Sequence record: PP418985.1
Length of the DNA: 64,000 nt
Direction: 5' to 3' (one strand)
Source: Escherichia phage UPWr_E1
The translations under genes and the position numbers were made by a program. The notes under the pieces are model-generated. The model did no database searches and was not told where the DNA came from. It was given only the letters and a program-made list of their open reading frames with translations. This document shows positions 4,658 to 64,000 of this stretch, one piece after another. Numbering within the stretch: the stretch's first letter is position 1; every line of letters begins with the position of its first letter.

Positions 4658-5338
4658 ATGATCAGAAACCGTCTTCCTCCAGATCCAGATATGCGAATTA
4701 ATGCTAAATCTGTGTATATGTTATATTGCATGATGAAAGCTCATATGAACGGGCGTTATGATTGCGTAAAATATAATTGGAGGATGCGGTTATCTGATGC
4801 CGCATTCAATAAACGCAGAGATAAGTATTATTTCGCGAAATTAGCGGAAAAGTACAATCTAAGAGAATTATACTTCCTATTCCTAAGCAATCTGGTAGCT
4901 AATACCGATGCATGGGTAGGTGAAATCACTGATGTTGACGCATACGGATTTTACATGGAGTATATCGGTAAGATCACTGATGCGGCAACAAGATTTGACG
5001 ACGATATCAAAAGTCTGGTATACTTCTCAGAGAAACGCGGGGTTACTCTTAAAGAGCTAATTACATATAATCCCGCAACCGAAACTAGCGGTATCTTTAA
5101 ACTGCTGCAAAATCGGATTATATCGTTTGAGTCGTTTATGTTGTTAGATAGCTTTCTAAATATAATCGACGAACACGACAAGGTAGCCAAAGACTTGATT
5201 TGGCAAACTTATAGTGTTAAAATGAAGGCGTACAAGAAACTACTTGTTATTGACGCCGCAAAAGCAAGAGCATTATTTGTTAAAGTAGTTAAAGAGTGTA
5301 AAGAAATATCTCAATTAAAAGCCGAAACAAATAGTTGA
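4658..5338 (+). CDS. 59: gp59 helicase loader
   Basis: 226 aa; strong resemblance to T4 gp59 (KSVY.LY.M.K.HMNG.YD..KYNW.MR.SDAA..KRRDKY.F.KL.EKY); RBS aagggg. Confidence 0.85.
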   Translation: MIRNRLPPDPDMRINAKSVYMLYCMMKAHMNGRYDCVKYNWRMRLSDAAFNKRRDKYYFAKLAEKYNLRELYFLFLSNLVANTDAWVGEITDVDAYGFYMEYIGKITDAATRFDDDIKSLVYFSEKRGVTLKELITYNPATETSGIFKLLQNRIISFESFMLLDSFLNIIDEHDKVAKDLIWQTYSVKMKAYKKLLVIDAAKARALFVKVVKECKEISQLKAETNS

Positions 5339-5362
5339 CAAGTAAATTTAAATCTGTATAAT
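5335..5362 (+). promoter_or_regulatory. Sigma70-type early promoter upstream of gene 32
   Basis: TTGACA, 16-nt spacer, TATAAT; followed by AT-rich leader. Confidence 0.5.
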
Positions 5363-5398
5363 AGTCTAGTAAATTAATCAAAAGAAGGAATAGTGAAT

Positions 5399-6367
5399 AT
5401 GTTTAAACGCCAAGATTCTTCCAAACTGCAAGCTCAACTGGCCGCACTGAAAGGTGGCAACGGTTTCTCCAAAGAAGATCCGAAAGAGTGGAAGATTAAG
5501 ACTGATGCAGCAGGTAACGGTGAAGCCCTGATTCGCTTCCTGCCGTCTAAAACAGAAGACGGTCTGCCGATTGTGAAACTGGTAAACCATTCCTTCAAAG
5601 TTAATGGTAAATGGTATTGGGAAAACTGCTCAAGCACCCACGGTGATTTTGATTCTTGCCCTGTGTGCAAATATATTAACGAAAAAGATCTGTACAATAC
5701 CGATAAAACCGAATGGCAACTGATTAAGCGTAAGGCATCTTACTACGCAAATATTCTGGTACTGAAAGATCCTCAAGCACCGGAAAATGAAGGTAAAGTA
5801 TTCAAATTCCGCTTCGGTCAGAAAATTTATGATAAGATCGTTGCGATGGTGAACGTGAATACCGATATGGGCGAAGTTCCGGTCGATGTAACTTGTGTGT
5901 TCTCCGGTGCTAACTTCCTCCTGAAAGCTAAGAAGGTTGATAAACACCAGAACTATGATGATTCTCGTTTCATGCAGCAATCACAGCTTCCGAAAATTGA
6001 AGACGAAGCATATCAGAAATATCTGATGGAAAACATGGTTGATCTGGGCGAGATTGTAGCGCCTAGCCAGTTTAAACCGTTCGATGAACTGGAAACCAAA
6101 TTTAAGAAAACTATGGGCGTTTCTATGGTAGCTGGTGCTGCGGCTTCCAGTGCTGCGGCAGCGATTAACAGCCAGCTTGACGATTTTGACGCTGCTTTAA
6201 ATGCATTCGATTCTGGTATTACCGCAGCTAGCACTGTAGTTGGTATTAACGCAGCTAACACGGCGTCAGATTCTTCCGCTGATGATCTGATGGCATCTCT
6301 GGACCTGGGTGGCGGTACTTCCTCCGCTTCTGATCTGGATGACCTGGACTCTCTGTTAGCGATGTAA
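5399..6367 (+). CDS. 32: gp32 single-stranded DNA-binding protein
   Basis: Start MFKRQDSS at the ATG 6 nt inside track ORF 5393; LIRFLPSK, zinc-binding [11 protein letters not shown], acidic S/D-rich C-terminus; T4 gp32-like. Confidence 0.9.
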
Positions 6368-13950: not shown

Positions 13951-13979
13951 TTGACAATCGGATCTTGCCATAGCATAAT
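13951..13979 (+). promoter_or_regulatory. Early promoter
   Basis: TTGACA-17-CATAAT then conserved leader catcgaaacgg. Confidence 0.5.
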
Positions 13980-14003
13980 ACGCACATCGAAACGGAGGGA
14001 CAT

Positions 14004-14222
14004 ATGGAAACAGAAGAACAAGTTATTGCATATTTTCATCGTAAAAAGATGAAACTTAGAATTGAAAAGCAGTACATCAATCACTACATTGACCGAGTTC
14101 ACTTAACAAATACACCTTACCTATTCCGGTTGATAAACCCTCGAAAACGGTGGGATAAGTTGGACAGAAACACAAAAATAATTGATAAACTCACCCAATG
14201 GTGGAATGAATACAACAAGTAA
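14004..14222 (+). CDS. Hypothetical protein, 72 aa
   Basis: ORF with RBS ggaggga. Confidence 0.5.
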   Translation: METEEQVIAYFHRKKMKLRIEKQYINHYIDRVHLTNTPYLFRLINPRKRWDKLDRNTKIIDKLTQWWNEYNK

Positions 14223-14231
14223 AAAAAGTAG

Positions 14232-14261
14232 TTGACACTGAATAACGGGGGGTAGTAATAT
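14232..14261 (+). promoter_or_regulatory. Early promoter with -10 inside hairpin (PeSL-like)
   Basis: TTGACA; hairpin ggggg-tagtaatata-ccccc containing TAATAT. Confidence 0.5.
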
Positions 14262-14294
14262 ACCCCCATCGAAACGAAACAAAGGAGAATCAAA

Positions 14295-14513
14295 ATGAAA
14301 TTTACTTGCACCGACTCTATCAACAAACACTTTGTAGTAGGCGAAGTATACGAATCTACTACCATTCGCCAGCGTGACCTGATGGGTCGCCTTTACAATC
14401 AGCCAGTATTCATTATTGGCGAAGAATTGTTCTACATTGAAAACCGTCCGTGGGTTGCTTTCAATAAACGAGGACGCAAGGTAGCAAAATTCGAACTTGT
14501 CATTAAAAAGTAG
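14295..14513 (+). CDS. Hypothetical protein, 72 aa
   Basis: ORF with RBS aaggagaatcaaa. Confidence 0.5.
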   Translation: MKFTCTDSINKHFVVGEVYESTTIRQRDLMGRLYNQPVFIIGEELFYIENRPWVAFNKRGRKVAKFELVIKK

Positions 14514-14542
14514 TTGACAGCATGAAACGGGGGTAGTAATAT
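14514..14542 (+). promoter_or_regulatory. Early promoter with -10 inside hairpin (PeSL-like)
   Basis: TTGACA-17-TAATAT, near-identical to the cassette at 14232. Confidence 0.5.
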
Positions 14543-14583
14543 ACCCCCATCGAAACGAAACTAACTTACTAAGGAGTATCAAG

Positions 14584-22365: not shown

Positions 22366-22378
22366 TTCAAAAAAGTTG

Positions 22379-22407
22379 TTGACAGGGGATCACCGATCCC
22401 CTATACT
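22379..22407 (+). promoter_or_regulatory. PeSL-type early promoter (hairpin spacer)
   Basis: TTGACA, 17-nt palindromic spacer ggggatcaccgatcccc, TATACT. Confidence 0.55.
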
Positions 22408-22441
22408 ACACACATACCGAAACGAACTAGGAGAATCAATT

Positions 22442-22621
22442 ATGAACTTCAACGAAATCATCGCTAAAATCCGCTACAACGAAGAAACCATTGAACTGAT
22501 GCAAAACAATATCACCAATGGCTATATGATTGCAGCGTCACAAGAAATCATTGATTTGACAGTAGCAGAAAATGCTCAGTTGAAACATCAACTTTCTACG
22601 GCTGGCGTGATTGTGATGTAA
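22442..22621 (+). CDS. Hypothetical protein, 59 aa
   Basis: ATG after conserved RBS aggagaatcaatt. Confidence 0.45.
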   Translation: MNFNEIIAKIRYNEETIELMQNNITNGYMIAASQEIIDLTVAENAQLKHQLSTAGVIVM

Positions 22622-22640
22622 TTTAACGAGAGGTAACTAA

Positions 22641-22907
22641 ATGAAGACAGTAAAAGATATCGTAGACAATCGCAAAGATGCAGTGGGTAAAATTTTTCAA
22701 TTACCAGAATCACCGATTGGACTTATTATCTACGTAACAGAAGATGATGTGTATGCTATTTGGAACGGCAACGATACATTCCACCCAGGAAACGGTCATC
22801 TGATCAATACTATGGAAGGTGAAGAACCACAACCAGTACACTTACTGGCACACAGTGTCACTATCGACGAACTGGAAGATGCAGCTAAACATATTCGGAG
22901 CATGTAA
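22641..22907 (+). CDS. Small protein, divergent member of HxHW paralog family
   Basis: 88 aa; IIYVTEDDVYAIW strand and His-rich segment. Confidence 0.45.
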   Translation: MKTVKDIVDNRKDAVGKIFQLPESPIGLIIYVTEDDVYAIWNGNDTFHPGNGHLINTMEGEEPQPVHLLAHSVTIDELEDAAKHIRSM

Positions 22908-22908
22908 C

Positions 22909-23229
22909 ATGGCAAAAGTTCAGGTAGGTGAAGTATTCAAAATGGCGGACCATACCGTAGAAGAGATGAAAGGTGCGGTACTGAAAGCAACCAATTCTAT
23001 GATGCGTAGTGTCCTTTACATCAACTTTATCGATGGTGATGTGTGGTGGGCTAGCGATAGTTGCAAATGGGATGAAGATTGTAACTTGGTTATCAAGTTC
23101 GGCAAAGGTCATAATCACTGGCTAGGAACAGAGGATGTTGTAGAAGTGCTGGCGGTTGATATTATGCCTAGCGAGATCGATAATCTTACTGGAACTGCAA
23201 ACGAAGTATTGACACGACATTTTGTGTAA
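22909..23229 (+). CDS. HxHW-family small protein
   Basis: 106 aa; YINFIDGD..GHNHW..VLAVDI. Confidence 0.5.
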   Translation: MAKVQVGEVFKMADHTVEEMKGAVLKATNSMMRSVLYINFIDGDVWWASDSCKWDEDCNLVIKFGKGHNHWLGTEDVVEVLAVDIMPSEIDNLTGTANEVLTRHFV

Positions 23230-23286
23230 TGTAATATAACAATCATTGGGAGGGGCAATACTCTCCCACAAATTGAGGATAATATT

Positions 23287-23589
23287 ATGGAACGTACCAA
23301 TTTGTTTGTAACCGAACCTTTCGTTGAAGGCAACAAGAACCTTGCTAATACGGTTATTCTTTACGAAGATTGGATCTTTTACATCGATGAGAATTTAGAT
23401 GTATATTGTCGTCCAACTCCAAATGACTCATTCTATATCGAAGAAAACGATACCCATAATCATTGGTATGACGGAAACGACGAAACCGATCTTGCTATTG
23501 TTCTCGAATCCGGCGTAGAATCGGAACATGCCGATGAAGTAGCAGACAAATTTATGAAATACGCATATAAAGATAAAGATGAAGAATAA
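23287..23589 (+). CDS. HxHW-family small protein
   Basis: 100 aa; FYIDENLDVY..THNHW..LAIVLE. Confidence 0.5.
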   Translation: MERTNLFVTEPFVEGNKNLANTVILYEDWIFYIDENLDVYCRPTPNDSFYIEENDTHNHWYDGNDETDLAIVLESGVESEHADEVADKFMKYAYKDKDEE

Positions 23590-23596
23590 AAAGTTG

Positions 23597-23625
23597 TTGA
23601 CAGGGGATCGGTGATCCCCTATAAT
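23597..23625 (+). promoter_or_regulatory. PeSL-type early promoter
   Basis: TTGACA, palindromic spacer ggggatcggtgatcccc, TATAAT. Confidence 0.55.
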
Positions 23626-23659
23626 GCACACATACCAACGAGATATAGGAGAATCAAAA

Positions 23660-23827
23660 ATGTTCCAGACTAAAGCAGAATGCGAAGCATACATTGTAGC
23701 AAACCACGGTGAAGACTACCTGAAATTCGATATCGTAGTAGCACAGAAGATCACCGGAATGGTTGCAAAATATCTGGGTGTTAAAGAAGGTTACTATCCA
23801 AGCAACGCACCGGAAATTAACAAATAA
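23660..23827 (+). CDS. Hypothetical protein, 55 aa
   Basis: ATG after RBS aggagaatcaaaa. Confidence 0.45.
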   Translation: MFQTKAECEAYIVANHGEDYLKFDIVVAQKITGMVAKYLGVKEGYYPSNAPEINK

Positions 23828-24084: not shown

Positions 24085-24363
24085 ATGATGCGAATTACTG
24101 CAACACTGGATAAGACACACAAAGAAAGATTTTTCGGTATGATCTTAAAAACGCCGATTTTCGATAATTACCTTTATGTTGACTATGAAGGTCACATTAG
24201 CTATAAATGTAAAAATGATATTCGTGATTCCTTTGGTGATAAATCACAAGCTGATATTCATGACCACTGGTGGACCTTCGACGAACCTTTACGGATTATC
24301 GCAGTTGATGTAAAAACAATAAAAGAAGCTGATAAGGTAGTTAACAATTATGAGCAAATTTAA
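24085..24363 (+). CDS. HxHW-family small protein
   Basis: 92 aa; LYVDYEGHISY..IHDHWW..IIAVDV. Confidence 0.5.
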   Translation: MMRITATLDKTHKERFFGMILKTPIFDNYLYVDYEGHISYKCKNDIRDSFGDKSQADIHDHWWTFDEPLRIIAVDVKTIKEADKVVNNYEQI

Positions 24364-24559
24364 AGATTATAAAGCATATCAACAGATCCTGCGAGTATAC
24401 GAACCAGAGTTCGCCGAAAAGATGATGGAAGATGCATCAAAATGCCCGTCCTTTTCTGGAAACAAAAACCATTATTCGACTGGTATTGTGTCATGGAAAG
24501 AAACCGCATATACTCAACAATGGATAGATGTGTTTTCAAAAACTCTTGAGTGGTGTTAA
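24350..24559 (+). CDS. Small protein, 69 aa (MSKFKDY paralog 1)
   Basis: MSKFKDYKAY...MMEDA...W.VF; tandem paralog of next ORF. Confidence 0.5.
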   Translation: MSKFKDYKAYQQILRVYEPEFAEKMMEDASKCPSFSGNKNHYSTGIVSWKETAYTQQWIDVFSKTLEWC

Positions 24560-24561
24560 TT

Positions 24562-24777
24562 ATGAGCAAATTTAAAGATTATCGAGCATATAAAGCGATC
24601 TGCGATATATTCGATGAAAAGACCGCTCATGCAATGATGGAAGATGCAGAACAATATGAATCATTCGTCAATTCCAAAGATTGCACAGTAAACGGGATTG
24701 TGTGCTGGAAAGATACAAAGTATGAAGAAAAATGGATTACCGTGTATTACGGAGAACTAGAATATGAAATTAACTAA
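24562..24777 (+). CDS. Small protein, 71 aa (MSKFKDY paralog 2)
   Basis: MSKFKDYRAY...MMEDA; tandem paralog of previous ORF. Confidence 0.5.
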   Translation: MSKFKDYRAYKAICDIFDEKTAHAMMEDAEQYESFVNSKDCTVNGIVCWKDTKYEEKWITVYYGELEYEIN

Positions 24778-25089: not shown

Positions 25090-25368
25090 ATGTTCAAAGT
25101 AGGTGATAAGTTTATTCTTAGTCGTGATATTCTCCCTAATCTGAAAGGTTGTATCATCAATCCTAGTAAAAATTCATGGTTTTATCTGTTTATCGACGAT
25201 TCTCTAAATGTACGCGCCGAATATAAAGAAGGTCTTCGTACTGGCCTCGGTTTCTTTCACGATCACGATCATAGCCATTGGCTAAACGGTGGATTCGAAG
25301 CAACGGTGCTAGCGGTTGATGTGACCTACACAAACATCATAGAAAAATACCAAAAAATTATTTTATAA
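25090..25368 (+). CDS. HxHW-family small protein
   Basis: 93 aa; LFIDDSLNV..HDHDHSHW..VLAVDV. Confidence 0.5.
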   Translation: MFKVGDKFILSRDILPNLKGCIINPSKNSWFYLFIDDSLNVRAEYKEGLRTGLGFFHDHDHSHWLNGGFEATVLAVDVTYTNIIEKYQKIIL

Positions 25369-25374
25369 AAAGTG

Positions 25375-25403
25375 TTGACATAAGATCGGGTGTATAGCAT
25401 AAT
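25375..25403 (+). promoter_or_regulatory. PeSL-type early promoter
   Basis: TTGACA; hairpin gggtgtat-agcataa-tacaccc containing CATAAT. Confidence 0.55.
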
Positions 25404-25449
25404 ACACCCATCGAAACGAGATACACTTTCTAACTAGGAGAATCAAATT

Positions 25450-25737
25450 ATGGCATACATCACTATCACGCTGAAAGTTAACAAATTTGCTCACGCTGCA
25501 CACGAAACCGATAATGCAATCCGTAACAACAAGTTTGCACGTCTGGTACGCGATGCAGTAGCTAAAGAGTTCAACTTCAAATTTGCAGATGGTAAAGTTA
25601 TCACTAAATGGACTCATGGCGGCGAAACTAAAGTAGAACTTGCTGATAACTTCGCAAATCAGGAATATGCACACCGTCGCATTAATGAAATTATCAGCGA
25701 CGAACTCTACTACGGTGTACAGGAAGGACTGTTTTAA
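25450..25737 (+). CDS. Hypothetical protein, 95 aa
   Basis: ORF after conserved leader and RBS. Confidence 0.5.
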   Translation: MAYITITLKVNKFAHAAHETDNAIRNNKFARLVRDAVAKEFNFKFADGKVITKWTHGGETKVELADNFANQEYAHRRINEIISDELYYGVQEGLF

Positions 25738-25743
25738 TATATG

Positions 25744-25764
25744 GGGGCGTTAACGCCCCTTTTC
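25744..25764 (+). terminator. Rho-independent terminator
   Basis: ggggcg-ttaa-cgcccc followed by tttt. Confidence 0.6.
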
Positions 25765-25787
25765 ATCCAACTATTGAGGATAATACT

Positions 25788-26093
25788 ATGAAAGATAATA
25801 TCTTTGAATTTACCCGCGAAAATCTCCCAATGTTCCGAAAGTCTCTGCTTAAACTAGATAACAGTAATTATGATGTATATTTTTACATCACAGAAGACCT
25901 AGAGATCCTTTACGCTGATTACCCTGGTCCGATCCGTACTTTCGAAAAAGCATCAAAGTATAAAAATGTGCACGGTCACACGCACTGGCTACGAGAAAAT
26001 TCAGTCAAGAAAGCGCGCGTTAAAGTGATTGCAATTGACGTAACGCCGGAACATGCTGACCGGATTGCACAGAATGATTATTTGTCTAAATGA
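25788..26093 (+). CDS. HxHW-family small protein
   Basis: 101 aa; YFYITEDLEILY..HGHTHW..VIAIDV. Confidence 0.5.
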   Translation: MKDNIFEFTRENLPMFRKSLLKLDNSNYDVYFYITEDLEILYADYPGPIRTFEKASKYKNVHGHTHWLRENSVKKARVKVIAIDVTPEHADRIAQNDYLSK

Positions 26094-26101
26094 TTTTATT
26101 A

Positions 26102-26124
26102 GCCGACCTTAGTGTCGGCTTTTT
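26102..26124 (+). terminator. Rho-independent terminator (copy 1 of repeated cassette)
   Basis: gccgac-cttagt-gtcggc followed by ttttt; identical hairpin at 26607. Confidence 0.65.
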
Positions 26125-26151
26125 ATTGCCAAAAATTTTTTAAAAAAGGCA

Positions 26152-26180
26152 TTGACACCAGATCCTGTATATAGCATAAT
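26152..26180 (+). promoter_or_regulatory. Early promoter
   Basis: TTGACA-17-CATAAT then acacccatcgaaacga leader. Confidence 0.5.
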
Positions 26181-26207
26181 ACACCCATCGAAACGAGATT
26201 GAGGGAA

Positions 26208-26393
26208 ATGAAGATGAAGATTTTATACAAGCATGGATGGTATAAAGTAAAAGCTATCGCCGATGGAGTCAAATATGAAGTGATTGTATTTGACGGATTC
26301 AACACTTATTGCGAAGATGTTAAATTGCCTTCAATGGGATGTGCTTATGATTATTGCAAACAAAGAATTGATAATAAAGCCAACTGCTTCTGA
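26208..26393 (+). CDS. Hypothetical protein, 61 aa
   Basis: ATG after RBS gaggga; 4 Cys residues. Confidence 0.45.
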   Translation: MKMKILYKHGWYKVKAIADGVKYEVIVFDGFNTYCEDVKLPSMGCAYDYCKQRIDNKANCF

Positions 26394-26606
26394 CCCGCTA
26401 AATGACGTAGAACCGCCAACTTGCAAAGCGGACTGTCCTTATAGACAAGAATTTAGGGGGGTATGATTTGCAAAGAAATGCTCTAAGAACCGAAACGGTT
26501 AGCATGGTCAGCAAATATCGATGCGGTTGGAATATTAAGCCTGGTAGGATTGGCGGTCATCCTCTAGATTATGAGGCTTGCATATATAGCAAGAATTTTA
26601 AAATGT

Positions 26607-26630
26607 GCCGACCTTAGTGTCGGCTTTTTT
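26607..26630 (+). terminator. Rho-independent terminator (copy 2 of repeated cassette)
   Basis: gccgac-cttagt-gtcggc followed by tttttt. Confidence 0.65.
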
Positions 26631-26654
26631 ATTTCCAAAAAATTAAAAAAGTTG

Positions 26655-26683
26655 TTGACACCTGATCACGCCTATAGCATAAT
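26655..26683 (+). promoter_or_regulatory. Early promoter
   Basis: TTGACA-17-CATAAT. Confidence 0.5.
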
Positions 26684-26723
26684 ACACACATCGAAACGAG
26701 ATACCACTTAGGAGAATCAAACA

Positions 26724-26993
26724 ATGGCACTGACTAAAACCACTACCAGCTTTGCAAAACGTCACGGTTTCGACCTTGAAATCAATAGCTTTGAAGATTA
26801 CACCCTTCTGTGTGTATATGAAATCGAAAATGATTGCGAGTGGATGTTCAGCTATCGCGTAAACGAAGACGGATCTTTCACTTGGAACGGAAATATCTAT
26901 CTTGCACAGGAAGTAAAAGAAGAACTTCCGGCGACTATCAAAGATGAGAAACATTTACGTCAAGTTTTAAAATTTATTTCTGAAAATATCTAA
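26724..26993 (+). CDS. Hypothetical protein, 89 aa
   Basis: ORF after RBS taggagaatcaaaca. Confidence 0.5.
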   Translation: MALTKTTTSFAKRHGFDLEINSFEDYTLLCVYEIENDCEWMFSYRVNEDGSFTWNGNIYLAQEVKEELPATIKDEKHLRQVLKFISENI

Positions 26994-27002
26994 AAAAAGT
27001 TG

Positions 27003-27031
27003 TTGACACCAAAGTAAGAACATAGCATAAT
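27003..27031 (+). promoter_or_regulatory. Early promoter
   Basis: TTGACA-17-CATAAT. Confidence 0.5.
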
Positions 27032-27064
27032 ACACCCATACCGAAACGAACGGGAGAATCAAAA

Positions 27065-27346
27065 ATGAAATTCATCAAAGCAACCGAAATCCTGAAAAAC
27101 AAAGAAGCATACATCGGAAACATCGTTGGTATGAACATTCGCGGCGCGGGTAGCCAGTGGACCAAACTGGTTGATGTTAAAGCTAAAGGCGATAAAATCG
27201 AGTTCACTGTAAAAATGCTTACTCATAACGCACATATGGGTATCAAGACAAAAACTATGGCAGCAGATAAAAGCATCAACTATCAAGACCTGGGCGATTG
27301 GCTGAACTGGTGCAAAATGTACAACATCGAAACTAATCACGAATAA
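27065..27346 (+). CDS. Hypothetical protein, 93 aa
   Basis: ORF after RBS gggagaatcaaaa. Confidence 0.5.
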   Translation: MKFIKATEILKNKEAYIGNIVGMNIRGAGSQWTKLVDVKAKGDKIEFTVKMLTHNAHMGIKTKTMAADKSINYQDLGDWLNWCKMYNIETNHE

Positions 27347-27360
27347 TTTTAAAAAAGTTG

Positions 27361-27390
27361 TTGACGGGGGATCGGGAGATCCCCTATAAT
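27361..27390 (+). promoter_or_regulatory. PeSL-type early promoter
   Basis: TTGACG, palindromic spacer ggggatcgggagatcccc, TATAAT. Confidence 0.55.
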
Positions 27391-27430
27391 ACACACATCA
27401 AGACGAGATACTACTTAGGAGAATCAAACA

Positions 27431-27682
27431 ATGGCTAACATCGAAACCGCAAAGAAAATCGCTAAAGACCTGAACGTTAAAGGCTTCCGTAAACTGAAAT
27501 TACAGCGTGTACGCTACACCATCGGCAAACAGTGCTCTTTCATGAGCGAAGAAGTTGCTAACAGCCTCATCGATAATCTGATTGCGGCTGGCTGGGAAGT
27601 TGCGGATCTGAAAACTTGCCGCGAACTGGCTAACAAAGGTCTTTTAGATTCTGTTACTATCAAACCAATGGGGGCAGCGTGA
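27431..27682 (+). CDS. Hypothetical protein, 83 aa
   Basis: Starts MANIE, sharing its first 16 nt with ORF 29565. Confidence 0.5.
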   Translation: MANIETAKKIAKDLNVKGFRKLKLQRVRYTIGKQCSFMSEEVANSLIDNLIAAGWEVADLKTCRELANKGLLDSVTIKPMGAA

Positions 27683-28725: not shown

Positions 28726-29244
28726 ATGAACCGTTTAACACCTAAACGCCGTTACTATACCAATACTAAAAACTTTGTCATCTCTGTTTATGAGGCGTGG
28801 TTAGAAGATGGCTATATCAACATGAACCCAGATTATCAGCGTCCTTTAGTATGGGACACCGAAAACAAACGTATGTTTATCGAAAACCTGATTAATGATT
28901 TTCCGGTTGGTGCTATCGCAATGGCTAAGATTGATGATGGCTCTCGCTATGAGATCGAAATCGTGGACGGTAAACAGCGTTTAAACGCAATATTCTCCTT
29001 TATGAAGGATGAGTTTAGCATTGCTGGTAATGATGATTCTATGCTGTATTACAGTGATTTTACGCCAGCAGAAAAGCGACGTTTCCGAAATCTCGGACTA
29101 CCCGCGATCATGATGGAAGAGAGCACAAGAGAAGACCGATTAGAGTATTTCTACAAAACAAACTTTTTCGGTGTTCCTCAATCGGAAGAACATCGCCAGC
29201 ATGTGATTGCCCTATTGCAAGATGAGCAATTAAAAAATAACTAA
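28726..29244 (+). CDS. DUF262 / ParB-like nuclease-domain protein
   Basis: 172 aa from ATG after RBS caggaga; NPDYQRPLVW and VDGKQRLNAI match the DUF262 signature (compare DGQQR). Confidence 0.45.
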   Translation: MNRLTPKRRYYTNTKNFVISVYEAWLEDGYINMNPDYQRPLVWDTENKRMFIENLINDFPVGAIAMAKIDDGSRYEIEIVDGKQRLNAIFSFMKDEFSIAGNDDSMLYYSDFTPAEKRRFRNLGLPAIMMEESTREDRLEYFYKTNFFGVPQSEEHRQHVIALLQDEQLKNN

Positions 29245-29252
29245 AAAAGTTG

Positions 29253-29281
29253 TTGACAGGGGATCATCGATCCCCTATAAT
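29253..29281 (+). promoter_or_regulatory. PeSL-type early promoter
   Basis: TTGACA, palindromic spacer ggggatcatcgatcccc, TATAAT. Confidence 0.55.
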
Positions 29282-29313
29282 ACACACATACCGAAACGAA
29301 AGGAGAATCAAAC

Positions 29314-29493
29314 ATGAAACACTTAACCATCGAATCGGCAATCATCGCAATCGCTAAAGTTCAAGCGGCTTATAATTGCACTGACATTGAAGCCATTTCA
29401 AAAATGCAAGCAGAAGCCGCAAAAGCAGGTGACGAGAAATCTTTAGATGTTCTCTGCGAAATCAAAGCAGAATTAATTTCAAAAATGTTCTAA
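29314..29493 (+). CDS. Hypothetical protein, 59 aa
   Basis: ATG after RBS aaggagaatcaaac; below track cutoff. Confidence 0.4.
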   Translation: MKHLTIESAIIAIAKVQAAYNCTDIEAISKMQAEAAKAGDEKSLDVLCEIKAELISKMF

Positions 29494-29499
29494 AAGTTG

Positions 29500-29528
29500 T
29501 TGACATAACAGAGGGTGTATATCATAAT
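29500..29528 (+). promoter_or_regulatory. PeSL-type early promoter
   Basis: TTGACA; hairpin gggtgtat-atcataa-tacaccc containing CATAAT. Confidence 0.55.
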
Positions 29529-29564
29529 ACACCCATACCGAAACGAACTACTAAGGAGTATCAA

Positions 29565-29777
29565 ATGGCTAACATCGAAATCATCGTTACCGACGTAACT
29601 TATGACCGCATCAATGAAATCGGTACTGCTTTGCTAGAAGATGGAACAACTCGCACCATCAACTACGCAGAATACGTTGAAATGCGCGGTTGGATTAAAC
29701 GAGTAGGAAAATATATCCTGATTGAAAAAGACTATTCAGGATACACCTTAGAGCAATTGCTTGATGGTGCATTATAA
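29565..29777 (+). CDS. Hypothetical protein, 70 aa
   Basis: Starts MANIE; RBS aaggagtatcaa. Confidence 0.5.
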   Translation: MANIEIIVTDVTYDRINEIGTALLEDGTTRTINYAEYVEMRGWIKRVGKYILIEKDYSGYTLEQLLDGAL

Positions 29778-58319: not shown

Positions 58320-59885
58320 TTAAAAATCCTCTATTTCATCGGGAGTTTGTTTAAAGCGCGGATCGTTCGCTTCTTCTTCGATCTGTTTCTTCTCGGTGTC
58401 CATCTGGTCATCGGTATATTTCAGAATGTCACGCATCACTGTCTGGTTAGAGAAATACTTACCAATGTAAGGGGCGATACGTTCGATTAGACCGATTCGA
58501 CGTTCTAAAATTTCCGCGTCTTTAACTTCTGTATAATAAGAGTCCCGATGGAAAACCACCTTGATATTATTTATTTCACGATCCCAATCGTCTTCCGTAA
58601 TTACATTTTTGAGAATCAGATTATATTTAAGCGGATCGCGCAATACTTCCGAAAACTGTGATTGCAGAGTTCTAATGAATTTCGAAAATTCCAACTCATC
58701 GCGAGTAATTTCTGAACCGTCACCGCCAATAACCATATTAGCATCGGAGAGATTGCTACGTGACAATGGCACACGCAACGCTTCATACAATTTACGGTTA
58801 AAGTAGCGAATATCATCGATATCACTCATACCAGATGCACCAGGTAAAGTAGTAACATCGGTGATTGCTTTACCATCTCGACGCTGTAACCAGTAGTCCT
58901 CTGTCATTGATAGGTTTGCTTGCTGGTTTTTAAGTTTACCAGTCGATGCATCATAAACAACGCGGTTTTTAAAAGACTGTGCCACTGAGTTCATGTGCTG
59001 TGCAGCCTTGCGGTTGTTCATGTTTCCGGTATCAATAAAGAATACTCGACGTTCCGGTGCACGCGTGATACGATAAACGACCATTGCGTCTTCAAGCAAT
59101 TTAAGCTGGTTTGCTGGCTTAACCGCCCGATGCAAATAACCAATGATATATTTATCATCGCAATCCATCAAGCCGCTGTGAGCGTATGTAATAGCACTAC
59201 GCGGGATTTTAACGCGACTATTGGGAGAGAATACTTGACCACCCGCGCAATAAGAACTATTGCCTACGGTGTAAATGAAATATTCTTTCGTTGCTTTATA
59301 AATTTTACCTTCCGGTGTGTCTTCTGTAATGATCTCGCGAACATATTCAAGATTTCGTGGATCAAGCTGGCGTAATTCTACGATACCATCTTTTGGATTT
59401 TTACCGATGATTTTATGGAAGAAAATACGCGAATCGACATACCAGCGACGGAACATATCCTGACCGCGCTTATCAAACTGGATAGTGTTTAAAAGATCTT
59501 TAAATTCTTCATGAATGCGCTCTTTCACAGATTCACTAAAACCAGTCGCCTCAAGATTTAATGAAACAACGTCATGACCTTCTTCAAATACAATCGCATC
59601 GTTAACGATATTCTGTACAGCGTTTTCGACTTCATGGTTATTCATCAAACCGCGATATGTGTTAACCAATTGCTTAGTTGTACTGATTTTCTGGTCGGTG
59701 CTGTAAAATTGCTGGGTAAGAGAGTTCCACGCGCTAGCCGGAGAGTTATCATTAATTTCTACTTCCGTAGCACCATCATTGTTTTTAGGTGCGGCGATAG
59801 ACTCTGCTTTATCTTTAATTTGTTCTTCGTATTTGTCGTTGTCAAAATCAGCCCAACGCGCAAGCATTTTTAATCTACTAAACAT
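58320..59885 (-). CDS. 20: Portal vertex protein gp20
   Basis: 521 aa; size and position between 19 and 67. Confidence 0.8.
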   Translation of the reverse strand: MFSRLKMLARWADFDNDKYEEQIKDKAESIAAPKNNDGATEVEINDNSPASAWNSLTQQFYSTDQKISTTKQLVNTYRGLMNNHEVENAVQNIVNDAIVFEEGHDVVSLNLEATGFSESVKERIHEEFKDLLNTIQFDKRGQDMFRRWYVDSRIFFHKIIGKNPKDGIVELRQLDPRNLEYVREIITEDTPEGKIYKATKEYFIYTVGNSSYCAGGQVFSPNSRVKIPRSAITYAHSGLMDCDDKYIIGYLHRAVKPANQLKLLEDAMVVYRITRAPERRVFFIDTGNMNNRKAAQHMNSVAQSFKNRVVYDASTGKLKNQQANLSMTEDYWLQRRDGKAITDVTTLPGASGMSDIDDIRYFNRKLYEALRVPLSRSNLSDANMVIGGDGSEITRDELEFSKFIRTLQSQFSEVLRDPLKYNLILKNVITEDDWDREINNIKVVFHRDSYYTEVKDAEILERRIGLIERIAPYIGKYFSNQTVMRDILKYTDDQMDTEKKQIEEEANDPRFKQTPDEIEDF

Positions 59886-59943
59886 TATTCACCTCGAATT
59901 GGGAGAAATTAAGCGGGGAACTTCTCCCCGCATGATAATATAT

Positions 59944-60438
59944 TTATTCTACCCAATCGATAGCAAAAGTAACTTCAAACGTTTCAACTTCGTTGTTTTG
60001 TTCCCAATCGAGGGTTACTTCACCAACGTTGGTCGGGAAAATACCGTACAATGTTTTTTCGCTAGTTGATTCGGTGTTACGGTTAAGTTGACGAACAATA
60101 GCTTGTTTCTTATATTGTGCAGGAGTTGCACCAGTGATCGCCGATCCAGTACCATGTGTTTGATCGCTCCACGCAACGATAGCATCACGGATCTTGTGTG
60201 CGTCATCGTTGAATACAGTGATGGTCCAGTCGTCATATACACGGTCGCCAGCGATGTTAATTTTACGGTTTTGATAACCTACAGAGATTTTTTCTACGGT
60301 TGCAGCCGGGACAGTTGCCGCTTTACACATCAGCTTAAAGTTTTGCCCCAGATAAGGGATCTCAACTTCAAACAGGTTAGGACGAGCAAAATCGCCAGAC
60401 TCGAAACCGCGTGTAATATCATTCAAATCGAGTGCCAT
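59944..60438 (-). CDS. 19: Tail tube protein gp19
   Basis: 164 aa; size and synteny. Confidence 0.8.
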   Translation of the reverse strand: MALDLNDITRGFESGDFARPNLFEVEIPYLGQNFKLMCKAATVPAATVEKISVGYQNRKINIAGDRVYDDWTITVFNDDAHKIRDAIVAWSDQTHGTGSAITGATPAQYKKQAIVRQLNRNTESTSEKTLYGIFPTNVGEVTLDWEQNNEVETFEVTFAIDWVE

Positions 60439-60680
60439 AATTGATATTCCTTAATAGAGCGGGGATTTTATCCCCGCTTGATTTAACTTTTAATCTATGC
60501 TAATTTACTGATTATGCCTGGTTAGCTGGACCGATAATTTCGTCAAAATCAGCACCAGTTGCAACAGCAGTGAAATTGAGCATGATATAGTTGATCGATT
60601 TTGCTGGTTTGATGAACATACTAGCAACAAATTCGTTACGATCAATTACATCCGGCGTGTTGTTCGTGGTGTCGCATTGT
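60408..60680. repeat. Tandem duplication unit 1 (273 bp): gene 19 5' end, intergenic hairpin, copy of gene 18 3' end
   Basis: Identical to 60681-60953 by eye. Confidence 0.8.
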
Positions 60681-60953
60681 CGCGTGTAATATCATTCAAA
60701 TCGAGTGCCATAATTGATATTCCTTAATAGAGCGGGGATTTTATCCCCGCTTGATTTAACTTTTAATCTATGCTAATTTACTGATTATGCCTGGTTAGCT
60801 GGACCGATAATTTCGTCAAAATCAGCACCAGTTGCAACAGCAGTGAAATTGAGCATGATATAGTTGATCGATTTTGCTGGTTTGATGAACATACTAGCAA
60901 CAAATTCGTTACGATCAATTACATCCGGCGTGTTGTTCGTGGTGTCGCATTGT
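60681..60953. repeat. Tandem duplication unit 2 (273 bp): copy of gene 19 5' end, hairpin, authentic gene 18 3' end
   Basis: Identical to 60408-60680 by eye. Confidence 0.8.
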
Positions 60954-62791
60954 ACTCGGAAGTCATAAATGCCACCCAGAGAGCGAATCGTGCTGAGATA
61001 TTGCGAAACCTCCATACGGAAGGAAGCGCGAGTAAAGTTATCGTTGTTTTCAAACAGTTTGTATTTGCTTGAATCGCCGATATTCTTTTTCAGCATGTTA
61101 AACAGACGACGAACGTTAATGCGGTCAAACGGGCTAGGAACAGTAGTAGCGGTTTTATCACCCATCAGGATAAACCCTTCACCACCAGCACCAATTACCG
61201 GGTTAATTGCAGCCTGATACAGACGATCACGGTGTGCCTTGCGAGGCTCAATAGCCAGTTTAACTACGTTCATGATCTGACCACGGTTATAACCTGCCGG
61301 ACTCATCCACGGTTGAGATACCGCATCAGTGCGAGCACACAAACCAGCAATATCAGCAGCCAACGGAACCCAGCGGTTTACATCGTTGTATTTGTCATAC
61401 TGATATTTGTAGTTACCATCAATAACCGCGTAAGTGGTATTAATGTTCATGTTGTTGTCTGAATAATTGCTCTTTCCTTCTCGCCATGCGATCAGGTTAT
61501 CAATTGCGGTAGTGACCGGAATATTAACAACAGTGCTACGCGGCGGAGAAACCATCACTAAGCAATCCTGACGCTCATCACCGATGGAAACAGCATGTTT
61601 CTGTACGGTGGAGAATGCATCACCTTCACCCGCACACGCACCAGCAATCAGCAGGTTTACATGAATAGACTCACGTTCAGCAAACAGATCCCAGCCTTTC
61701 ATCATTGCGCCAATAAACGGATCAGCACCAACACCAACACCCGCAGTTGCGGATTCGTTAGCAGAAACACCACCAACCAAAGAGATGATACCACTGAAAC
61801 CATCTACCCAGCCCTGAGCGGTTGCATAGATGTACTGACTAGCACCACGAGCAAAGAAGTCGTCCATATAGATAGAATTGCCGTAAACGTCTTTATCCCC
61901 TTTCAGAGTAGACAGTACATAGGATTCTACCACAACACCATCTCGACGAACAATAAACGCATATTGATTATCATTCTGCGGTGCATATGGAATCAGGTTG
62001 CGTGCTGCGGCACGAGTTCCACCGAACGGATACAGTGTCAATTCAGGTGCTGCCGCTCCGCTAAACGCGCTACGTGCCAGAATCTCAACTTCCAGAGAGT
62101 TACCAATCTCACCAGCATAGATTGCACTTACCGCTGGCATATCATACTTTTTGAGCTTAGTCAAAAATTCTTGATTGGTGATATTGGCGCGGGAAGTCTC
62201 CAGATCCGTTAAGAGAAGACCGGAATCGGTAACAATTTTAGAAATGGTGATCGCCGCATTTGAGTTACCAGTGCCGGAAGTGATTTCTACGGTAAACCCA
62301 TCCAGATTAGGATACACGCCAACGGATTTAGCCAGAGCAATGATTTTCCCGGTTGGGATGAAAATACCTTTAATTTTACCTTCTGTATCTACTTTGGTTA
62401 CTTTACCAGCGGTTTCAACTTCCTGACGATTGTATTTTACTTTAATTGAATCGCCTACTTTGTAGTTAGAACCTTCGTTGGTAATATTAAATTCTACGTT
62501 ACCCGCGAGAGTGGTGGAGTTTTTCGCTTTTTCTGTATTCAGTACACGAACAACACGCAGGTCGTTACCATACTGGAGGAAGTTAGCCCCGCTCATGAAA
62601 TAGTCTGCGGTGTTATTATCCGGCTGACCAAATTTATTAACTAATTCAACTTCATTAGTTACTTGAATAATCTGGAAAGCTGGACCCCATTGAAATTTAC
62701 CTACCAGCGCCGCGCGACCAGTCGCAGATTGTACAATGGTAGTGGAGAGAGTAGTTTCTTTCGTTTCGAAACCCGGTGATAATAGAGTCAT
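60785..62791 (-). CDS. 18: Tail sheath protein gp18
   Basis: 668 aa; size and synteny with 17 and 19. Confidence 0.85.
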   Translation of the reverse strand: MTLLSPGFETKETTLSTTIVQSATGRAALVGKFQWGPAFQIIQVTNEVELVNKFGQPDNNTADYFMSGANFLQYGNDLRVVRVLNTEKAKNSTTLAGNVEFNITNEGSNYKVGDSIKVKYNRQEVETAGKVTKVDTEGKIKGIFIPTGKIIALAKSVGVYPNLDGFTVEITSGTGNSNAAITISKIVTDSGLLLTDLETSRANITNQEFLTKLKKYDMPAVSAIYAGEIGNSLEVEILARSAFSGAAAPELTLYPFGGTRAAARNLIPYAPQNDNQYAFIVRRDGVVVESYVLSTLKGDKDVYGNSIYMDDFFARGASQYIYATAQGWVDGFSGIISLVGGVSANESATAGVGVGADPFIGAMMKGWDLFAERESIHVNLLIAGACAGEGDAFSTVQKHAVSIGDERQDCLVMVSPPRSTVVNIPVTTAIDNLIAWREGKSNYSDNNMNINTTYAVIDGNYKYQYDKYNDVNRWVPLAADIAGLCARTDAVSQPWMSPAGYNRGQIMNVVKLAIEPRKAHRDRLYQAAINPVIGAGGEGFILMGDKTATTVPSPFDRINVRRLFNMLKKNIGDSSKYKLFENNDNFTRASFRMEVSQYLSTIRSLGGIYDFRVQCDTTNNTPDVIDRNEFVASMFIKPAKSINYIMLNFTAVATGADFDEIIGPANQA

Positions 62792-62822: not shown

Positions 62823-64000
<1,178 letters not shown>

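What the first reader, a model, noticed from the sequence alone, without database searches (positions are those of the whole stretch)
60408..60953. Perfect 273-bp tandem duplication across the gene 18 / gene 19 junction
Positions 60408-60680 and 60681-60953 appear identical base for base. The unit holds the first 10 codons of gp19 with its RBS, the intergenic hairpin gcgggga-tttta-tccccgc, and the last ~56 codons of gp18. Both genes stay intact (gp19 uses copy 1, gp18 uses copy 2), leaving a 5'-truncated gp18 tail fragment and a 23-codon gp19-start pseudo-ORF between them. Without the duplication the intergenic gap would be about 73 bp. It may be a real recent duplication or an assembly artefact.
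Basis: seen in the sequence. Interest (0 to 1): 0.7.

Follow-up and report, generated by a model that had tools for sequence, protein, structure and literature searches.

The report
Exact 273-bp repeat, probably assembly artefact
A 273-base stretch across the tail-sheath/tail-tube gene boundary of an RB49-like (T4-type) phage is present twice, head to tail and letter-perfect; no relative has it, no gene is changed, and it is most likely leftover overlap from genome assembly, so it is ordinary unless sequencing reads show otherwise.

Summary
Window 60408-60680 and 60681-60953 are identical over 273 bases, in exactly 2.0 copies, with no shared bases at the joint. It is the only exact repeat longer than 33 nt in the 64 kb.

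The phage is a Krischvirus (RB49-like). Genes 19, 18 and 20 lie on the minus strand, and genes 18 and 19 each keep one intact copy.

With one copy removed, the sequence aligns without gaps to relatives, and the 18/19 spacer returns to their 73 nt. None of the comparison sequences has a second copy or the new joint:
- 57 close phage records
- 80 IMG/VR T4-like loci
- 12 ENA/Logan contigs

The joint is also absent from four large sequence collections. No independent assembly of this phage exists in those collections, so reads cannot be checked.

Best explanation (about 0.57): a finishing artefact, in which the overlapping ends of a contig from a circularly permuted genome were joined without trimming.

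Main rival (about 0.38): a very recent real tandem duplication, neutral and unstable. A T4 Hp17-type amplification and a true terminal repeat are rejected.

One side observation: the 18/19 spacer hosts an inserted ORF of unknown function in some relatives.

Interest is low. Read mapping or one PCR would settle it.

The parts
60408..60680 (.). Copy 1 of the 273-bp unit. On the minus strand it carries a promoterless 3' fragment of gene 18, the spacer with the hairpin, and the true start of gene 19.
60681..60953 (.). Copy 2 of the 273-bp unit. On the minus strand it carries the true 3' end of gene 18, the spacer with the hairpin, and a decoy gene 19 start.
60680..60681 (.). The new joint (plus strand ...GTCGCATTGT|CGCGTGTAAT...). 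It has no microhomology and is found in no other sequence searched.
59944..60438 (-). Gene 19, tail tube protein, 164 aa, intact. Its first 31 nt lie in copy 1.
   Evidence: annotation of relatives; Pfam Phage_T4_gp19 on the identical product
60785..62791 (-). Gene 18, tail sheath protein, 668 aa, intact. Its last 169 nt including the stop lie in copy 2.
60646..60711 (-). Decoy ORF of 21 codons. It has the gene 19 ribosome-binding site, the ATG and 10 gene 19 codons, then reads out of frame into the gene 18 fragment.
60512..60680 (-). 5'-truncated gene 18 tail fragment (55 codons + 1 nt + stop). It has no start of its own except an internal ATG at 60619.
60459..60477 (-). Spacer hairpin, copy 1: a 7-bp G+C stem extendable to 9 bp, not followed by a U run on the minus strand.
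   Evidence: 91-nt fold -20.9 kcal/mol, z -3.9
60732..60750 (-). Spacer hairpin, copy 2.
62823..62830 (-). TATAAATA, a match to the T4-type late promoter consensus just upstream of gene 18. There is none between genes 18 and 19, so gene 19 is probably co-transcribed with gene 18 (inference).

Best explanation
This is a non-biological duplication made when the genome sequence was finished. T4-type phages package circularly permuted DNA by the headful (established knowledge), so their reads assemble into a contig with arbitrary ends, and those ends often overlap each other. The likely steps are as follows. The contig began at what is now 60681 and ended at what is now 60680, with 273 bases present at both ends. 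The two ends were then joined without trimming the overlap, either when the sequence was rotated or circularised, or when two overlapping contigs were pasted together, or because this window runs across the end-to-start join. The result is a perfect two-copy head-to-tail repeat at an arbitrary place.

Shown: the repeat is exact, has two copies, is private to this sequence, and collapses to the normal gene order. Inferred: the history of the assembly.
For: 1. Both copies are 100% identical over 273 nt, in exactly 2.0 copies. Both carry the same private substitutions relative to the nearest relatives, for example the hairpin-loop T where G2494 and RB49 have G.
2. The end points ignore gene structure. 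They fall in codon 11 of gene 19 and about 55 codons from the end of gene 18. They share no microhomology, as expected for arbitrary contig ends.
3. Deleting one copy gives a gapless 1128/1128 alignment to G2494, RB49 and Makalu_001. It also restores the 73-nt spacer seen in relatives.
4. All 57 close Krischvirus records span 1125-1128 nt for the 1401-nt query, which means a single copy. No record holds the joint contiguously.
5. 80 IMG/VR T4-like loci show no tandem repeat here. Twelve ENA/Logan contigs are single copy and lack the joint.
6. The joint 41-mer is absent from IMG/VR, JGI metagenomes and GTDB genomes.
7. The duplication gives no gene an extra intact copy, so there is nothing obvious to select for.
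8. The artefact class is documented. [quoted passage not shown] Start-end overlap duplication in assemblies of circular replicons has been benchmarked (PMC6966772).
9. A genuine old tandem gene pair in the same window (24350-24559 and 24562-24777) is only 46% identical at the protein level. Real, retained duplicates here have diverged.
Against: 1. No reads, assembly graph or source record could be reached, so the artefact is inferred and not shown.
2. 273 is not a standard de Bruijn k-mer overlap (SPAdes k goes up to 127, MEGAHIT to 141; my own knowledge). It fits only overlap-layout or long-read assemblers, or manual joining.
3. The window has genes 18 and 19 on the minus strand, opposite to the RB49 convention. 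That does not look like a record deliberately rotated to match the reference.
4. The unit spans a gene boundary, so both essential genes survive, which is what a viable real duplication would need. This is weak evidence, because 47% of random 273-nt segments in the window (30% in the late-gene block) also avoid lying wholly inside one ORF.
5. The rest of the window is clean, with no N and an unbroken ORF map, so there is no independent sign of poor finishing.
6. The unit contains a spot where relatives carry an inserted ORF. That could point to a break-prone site.
Confidence: 0.57

Rival explanations
1. A real and very recent spontaneous tandem duplication in this phage isolate. It would have arisen by illegitimate (homology-independent) joining during replication or repair, been fixed by a single-plaque bottleneck, and be selectively near neutral. 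Gene 18 ends in the first copy met by transcription and gene 19 starts in the second. The transcript gains a second hairpin and a decoy 21-codon ORF. Homologous recombination between the two 273-bp copies should remove it at an appreciable rate.
For: 1. The structure is exactly that of a tandem duplication that leaves every gene with an intact copy.
2. The window is otherwise well finished.
3. 273 nt is not a usual assembler overlap (my own knowledge).
4. The orientation suggests an un-rotated record.
5. Tandem duplications are classical in T4 genetics (my own knowledge: Weil, Terzaghi and Crasemann 1965; Parma, Ingraham and Snyder 1972).
6. Amplifications around genes 17-19 are known in T4 (PMC10893049).
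Against: 1. There is no divergence at all between the copies, and no relative or independent contig carries it.
2. There is no microhomology at the joint. To my knowledge, most T4 deletion and duplication end points lie at short direct repeats.
3. No gene dosage changes, so no selection is apparent.
4. T4-type recombination is very active on a few hundred bases of homology (my own knowledge), so the state is short-lived. The prior for catching it in a given isolate is therefore low.
Confidence: 0.3
2. A real duplication left as a repair scar of a double-strand break in the 18/19 spacer. The break would be made, for example, by a nuclease associated with the mobile ORF that occupies this spacer in some relatives. 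Both broken ends would be extended on a sister genome past the break and then ligated without homology, duplicating the stretch around the break.
For: 1. In phage phiS a 199-aa ORF replaces window 60484-60504, which lies inside the unit.
2. Homologues sit in the same spacer in 7 of 80 IMG/VR T4-like loci, whose spacers are 630-880 nt against under 200 nt in the other 73.
3. A blunt joint without microhomology fits ligation rather than slippage.
Against: 1. The ORF has no recognised nuclease domain. Pfam gives only sub-threshold zinc-ribbon hits, PHROG 5104 has unknown function, and NCBIfam and PDB give nothing. The HNH-like motif I see by eye is unproven.
2. No cleavage site is known.
3. The window itself has no copy of the ORF.
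4. Inserted elements are frequent in this neighbourhood anyway: gene 17 is interrupted in several relatives. The coincidence was also noticed after the fact.
5. The mechanism has not been described for T4-type phages, to my knowledge.
Confidence: 0.07
3. A selected gene amplification of the T4 Hp17 type. In that system, recombination between the pac-site sequence at the 3' end of gene 16 and a homologous sequence in gene 19 repeats the segment in between, to raise terminase output.
For: It lies in the same neighbourhood, genes 16-19 (PMC10893049, citing Wu, Wu and Black 1991).
Against: 1. The unit contains no part of gene 17 and no complete gene.
2. There are two copies only.
3. There is no homology at the end points.
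4. In RB49, no gene 16 / gene 19 homology exists near the end points. The best match is 17 of 24, and no 10-mer is shared.
Confidence: 0.01
4. A true direct terminal repeat. In this reading the virion DNA has fixed ends at 60681 and 60680 with a 273-bp repeat at each end, and the window shows the joined ends.
For: The geometry would be the same as two exact copies meeting head to tail.
Against: 1. The ends would lie inside two essential late genes.
2. T4-type phages, including RB49, package by the headful with permuted ends (established knowledge).
3. Records of relatives start at many different places.
4. No relative has this repeat.
Confidence: 0.02

Closest known systems
Start-end overlap duplication in assemblies of circular or circularly permuted genomes (Phage Annotation Guide, PMC8785237; Wick and Holt assembler benchmark, PMC6966772)
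   Same: There are two exact copies, arbitrary end points, no biological signature at the joint, absence from all relatives, and collapse to the normal sequence.
   Different: Here the repeat is internal to the window rather than at the two ends of a record. That needs an extra step (rotation, concatenation or wrap-around) that I cannot document. The length of 273 nt is not a standard k-mer overlap.
Spontaneous tandem duplications of phage T4 (the classical rII duplications)
   Same: The copies lie head to tail in a T4-type genome. Every gene keeps an intact copy because the unit spans a gene boundary. The structure is expected to be unstable by homologous recombination.
   Different: The classical cases are kilobases long and were found under selection (my own knowledge). 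This one is 273 bp with no selectable effect, no microhomology and no experimental support.
T4 Hp17 gene 17-18 amplifications (Wu, Wu and Black 1991, as summarised in PMC10893049)
   Same: It lies in the same genome neighbourhood and involves gene 19.
   Different: It contains no gene 17, has no repeated array and has no gene 16 / gene 19 homology at the end points.

Membership tests
Assembly start-end overlap artefact | Two copies, identical base for base, directly adjacent | tested here: met
   273/273 identical, 2.0 copies
Assembly start-end overlap artefact | The genome assembles as a circle (circularly permuted, headful packaging) | tested here: met
   The window is a Krischvirus (RB49-like, Straboviridae) by 93-98% DNA identity. 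Headful packaging of T4-type phages is established knowledge. Records of relatives begin at many different positions.
Assembly start-end overlap artefact | Removing one copy restores exact collinearity with relatives | tested here: met
   1128/1128 gapless to three relatives; 73-nt spacer
Assembly start-end overlap artefact | No sequencing read spans the joint, and read depth over the unit is onefold | not testable with these tools
   No reads are available and the source record is in no collection. No contig of the same phage was found; the best identity is 97.8%.
Assembly start-end overlap artefact | The joint coincides with the original contig ends | not testable with these tools
   The assembly history is unknown.
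Real spontaneous tandem duplication (T4 type) | Head-to-tail copies with a new joint, and every gene with one intact copy | tested here: met
Real spontaneous tandem duplication (T4 type) | The joint is physically present in virion DNA | not testable with these tools
   This needs reads or PCR.
Real spontaneous tandem duplication (T4 type) | Short direct repeat (microhomology) at the end points. This is usual but not obligatory. | tested here: not met
   the flanking bases differ on both sides. The nearby ACTCG pentamers (60399-60403 and 60954-60958) are not at the joint.
Real spontaneous tandem duplication (T4 type) | Seen in an independent isolate or assembly | tested here: not met
   0 of 57 records, 0 of 80 IMG/VR loci, 0 of 12 ENA/Logan contigs
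T4 Hp17-type amplification | The unit includes gene 17 (and gene 18) | tested here: not met
   the unit holds only the gene 18 tail, the spacer and the gene 19 head
T4 Hp17-type amplification | End points lie at a short homology between the 3' end of gene 16 and gene 19 | tested here: not met
   (RB49 genes 16-19): best match 17/24, no shared 10-mer; no homology at the end points
T4 Hp17-type amplification | A repeated array of more than two copies | tested here: not met
   2.0 copies
Direct terminal repeat of a fixed-end genome | Termini lie outside essential coding sequence and are shared by relatives | tested here: not met
   the end points lie inside genes 18 and 19, and no relative has the repeat

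The most novel reading that the evidence does not exclude
The duplication is real and is a repair scar. In this reading, a double-strand break in the 18/19 spacer was repaired by over-extension of both ends and homology-free ligation, leaving a blunt 273-bp tandem duplication centred on the break. The spacer is a recurrent landing site of a mobile ORF of unknown function (PHROG 5104) in T4-type phages. If so, this would be a natural footprint of end joining in a T4-type phage, and would mark the cleavage region of an uncharacterised homing-type element.
Probability: 0.07. Interest if true: 0.45.

Novelty: not a real feature. Interest (0 to 1): 0.12.

Why it matters
As an artefact, it matters only for data hygiene. 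The record would be 273 bp too long. It would also carry a spurious 346-nt gap between genes 18 and 19, a false small ORF and a false gene 18 fragment, and it should be corrected before annotation or comparative work.

If real, it would be a snapshot of a freshly arisen, unstable, blunt-jointed tandem duplication in a natural T4-type phage. That would be mildly interesting for how such phages make and lose duplications, but it is a known kind of event with no evident function.

Tried and rejected
1. Tracing the source. The joint 41-mer was searched in IMG/VR, JGI metagenomes and GTDB genomes, with 0 hits. The region was searched in the phage, E. coli genome and plasmid collections. There was no identical record, and no hit at all in the last two. 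The exact gp18 protein is not on record. The exact gp20 and gp19 proteins led to 12 contigs, none of them the same phage (at most 97.8% identity) and all single copy. So no independent assembly or read-derived contig could decide the matter.

2. Hp17-type mechanism. I looked for a gene 16 / gene 19 homology in RB49 and found none. Rejected.

3. Hairpin-mediated recombination. The GCGGGGA-N5-TCCCCGC hairpin also follows gene 19 (59913-59931). However, the duplication end points are 51 and 203 nt away from the spacer hairpin, so it is not involved.

4. Microhomology. The pentamer ACTCG lies just outside both ends (60399-60403 and 60954-60958). A crossover there would give a 282-nt unit with ACTCG at the joint, which is not what is seen.

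5. A promoter in the unit. There is no TATAAATA between genes 18 and 19. The sigma-70-like hits are at chance level.

6. A broken gene 17. The 366-aa ORF listed looked truncated, but the frame simply runs off the window end. Nothing is wrong there.

7. Literature on T4 duplication instability and end-point homology. Searches returned nothing usable, so those statements rest on my own knowledge and are marked as such.

8. Function of the inserted ORF in phiS. There was no family match in Pfam, NCBIfam or PDB.

Full report
**1. The observation**

Reading the sequence, the repeat finder, Tandem Repeats Finder and a direct string comparison agree. Window 60408-60680 and 60681-60953 are identical over all 273 bases, giving exactly 2.0 copies with no mismatch or indel.

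The repeat cannot be extended by a single base on either side. The base before copy 1 is C, while the unit ends in T. The base after copy 2 is A, while the unit starts with C. The joint therefore carries no microhomology.

This is the only tandem repeat found in the 64 kb. It is also the only exact direct repeat longer than 33 nt. Chance is not an issue for a 273-nt perfect match.

**2. What lies there**

The window belongs to an RB49-like T4-type phage (genus Krischvirus). The nearest records are 93-98% identical, and none is identical.

The late genes lie on the minus strand (with annotation of relatives and Pfam families):
- gene 20 (portal): 58320-59885
- gene 19 (tail tube, 164 aa): 59944-60438
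- gene 18 (tail sheath, 668 aa): 60785-62791
- gene 17 (large terminase): from 62826, running off the window end

Read on the minus strand, the unit contains these parts in order:
- the last 55 codons plus one base of gene 18, and its TAA stop
- the complete 73-nt spacer, with a stable hairpin (GCGGGGA-TAAAA-TCCCCGC; the 91-nt fold is -20.9 kcal/mol, z = -3.9)
- the ribosome-binding site of gene 19
- the first 10 codons plus one base of gene 19

Gene 18 therefore ends normally in copy 2, and gene 19 starts normally in copy 1. Two leftovers sit between them. One is a decoy ORF of 21 codons that begins at the duplicated gene 19 start (60646-60711). The other is a promoterless gene 18 tail fragment (60512-60680).

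A T4-type late promoter match, TATAAATA, sits just upstream of gene 18 (62823-62830), and there is none between genes 18 and 19. Gene 19 is therefore probably co-transcribed with gene 18. That is an inference.

**3. Comparison with relatives**

With one copy removed, the region aligns to phages G2494, RB49 and Makalu_001 over 1128 of 1128 positions without a gap, at 96.7-97.4% identity. The spacer regains the 73 nt annotated in those phages.

Both copies share the window's private substitutions, such as the T in the hairpin loop. The copying therefore happened after this lineage diverged.

The wider comparison gave the same answer:
- All 57 close Krischvirus records cover the 1401-nt query within 1125-1128 nt, which means one copy.
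- None holds the joint as a contiguous sequence.
- Eighty T4-like loci from IMG/VR have no exact repeat of 30 nt or more at this junction.
- Twelve ENA/Logan contigs that encode exactly the same gp20 or gp19 are all single copy and lack the joint. None is the same phage, the best being 97.8% identical.
- The joint 41-mer is absent from IMG/VR, JGI metagenomes and GTDB genomes.
- The region has no match in the E. coli genome or plasmid collections.

The duplication is therefore private to this sequence. No independent assembly of this phage is available to arbitrate.

**4. Most likely explanation: a finishing artefact**

T4-type phages package circularly permuted DNA by the headful (established knowledge). 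Their reads therefore assemble into a contig with arbitrary ends, and those ends frequently overlap.

[quoted passage not shown] The same start-end overlap duplication has been benchmarked for assemblers of circular replicons (PMC6966772).

Joining such ends without trimming gives exactly what is seen here. This could happen on rotating the sequence, on pasting two overlapping contigs together, or if the window runs across the end-to-start join. The result is two perfect copies, end points that ignore genes and share no homology, no effect on any gene, and absence from every relative.

A genuine old tandem gene pair in the same window (24350-24559 and 24562-24777) is only 46% identical in protein. 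That contrast shows what retained duplications look like in this genome.

I put this explanation at about 0.57.

**5. What speaks against the artefact, and the main rival**

Several points count against the artefact:
- The history is inferred, not shown.
- 273 nt is not a usual k-mer overlap.
- The window's orientation is opposite to the RB49 convention, which does not suggest a deliberate rotation.
- The rest of the window is clean.

A real, very recent tandem duplication has the same structure. It could have been fixed by a plaque bottleneck and be nearly neutral.

That both essential genes survive is what a viable duplication needs. This is weak evidence, though, because 47% of random 273-nt segments in the window, and 30% in the late-gene block, also avoid lying wholly inside one ORF.

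Against the real reading:
- There is zero divergence between the copies.
- There is no second sighting anywhere.
- There is no microhomology at the joint.
- No gene changes in dosage.
- By general knowledge of T4 recombination, 273 bp of direct homology should be lost quickly.

I give the plain real-duplication reading about 0.30.

**6. A speculative variant**

One relative, phage phiS, carries a 199-aa ORF in the 18/19 spacer. It replaces window 60484-60504, which lies inside the unit.

Homologues sit in the same spacer in 7 of 80 IMG/VR T4-like loci. Their spacers are 630-880 nt, against under 200 nt in the other 73. The spacer is thus a recurrent landing site of a mobile ORF.

If that ORF's product cuts nearby, the duplication could be a break-repair scar. 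However, the ORF has no recognised nuclease domain: PHROG 5104 has unknown function, and there are only sub-threshold zinc-ribbon hits. Insertions are also common in this neighbourhood, since gene 17 is interrupted in several relatives. And the coincidence was noticed after the fact. I give this about 0.07.

**7. Rejected readings**

The T4 Hp17 amplification repeats genes 17-18 through a gene 16 / gene 19 homology (PMC10893049). It fails on every defining feature tested:
- there is no gene 17 in the unit
- there are only two copies
- there is no end-point homology
- there is no gene 16 / gene 19 homology in RB49

A true terminal repeat would put the genome ends inside two essential genes of a headful-packaging phage, and no relative has it.

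**8. Verdict**

Whether the duplication is real or an artefact cannot be settled without reads. The balance favours an artefact, and even the real alternative is an ordinary, function-less event of a known kind.

Read mapping across the joint, or a single PCR (761 bp against 488 bp), would decide it. Interest is low.

Noticed in passing
L097 (phage phiS, PP449093) 1283-1882, corresponding to window 60484-60504; also L011, L012, L022, L023, L046, L074 and L075 at about 5030-5830: A 199-aa ORF of unknown function sits in the gene 18/19 spacer of phiS and of 7 of 80 IMG/VR T4-like loci. It belongs to PHROG 5104, gives weak zinc-ribbon hits, and shows an HNH-like D-H...N...N motif by eye only. The other 73 loci have spacers under 200 nt. 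It looks like a mobile, homing-type element with a preferred site between the sheath and tube genes.
   Followed up: partly
window 13970-14564, 22366-23662, 25354-27435, 29240-29565 (+ strand): There is a family of repeated cassettes of about 70 nt in the early-gene region. Each has AAAAAGTTGTTGACA, a spacer that often forms a stem-loop (GGGGATC...GATCCCC), a TATAAT-like box, a conserved leader (ACACCCATCGAAACGA) and a ribosome-binding site. From memory, they match the promoter-early stem-loop (PeSL) cassettes described for RB49-type phages.
   Followed up: partly
window 24350-24559 and 24562-24777 (+ strand): Two adjacent small ORFs (69 and 71 aa) are paralogues, 46% identical (E 2e-21). This is an old, diverged tandem gene duplication.
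   Followed up: partly
window 59913-59931 (- strand), compared with 60459-60477 and 60732-60750: The same hairpin stem, GCGGGGA-N5-TCCCCGC, follows gene 19 and gene 18 and occurs nowhere else in the window. After gene 19 it is followed by a T-rich tail and looks like a terminator. After gene 18 it is not. The loop varies among relatives while the stem is kept.
   Followed up: partly
L086 and L089 524-3340; L090 and L093 234-3345; L001 (G2494) misc_feature 4051 onwards: In several close relatives the large terminase gene 17 is interrupted. In two it is a 938-aa product with a faint LAGLIDADG hit (intein-like). In two others it is split in two around a TnsA-like/endonuclease I insert. In G2494 it is annotated only as 'similar to large terminase' over 3112 nt. 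In the window, gene 17 runs off the end, so its state is unknown.
   Followed up: no
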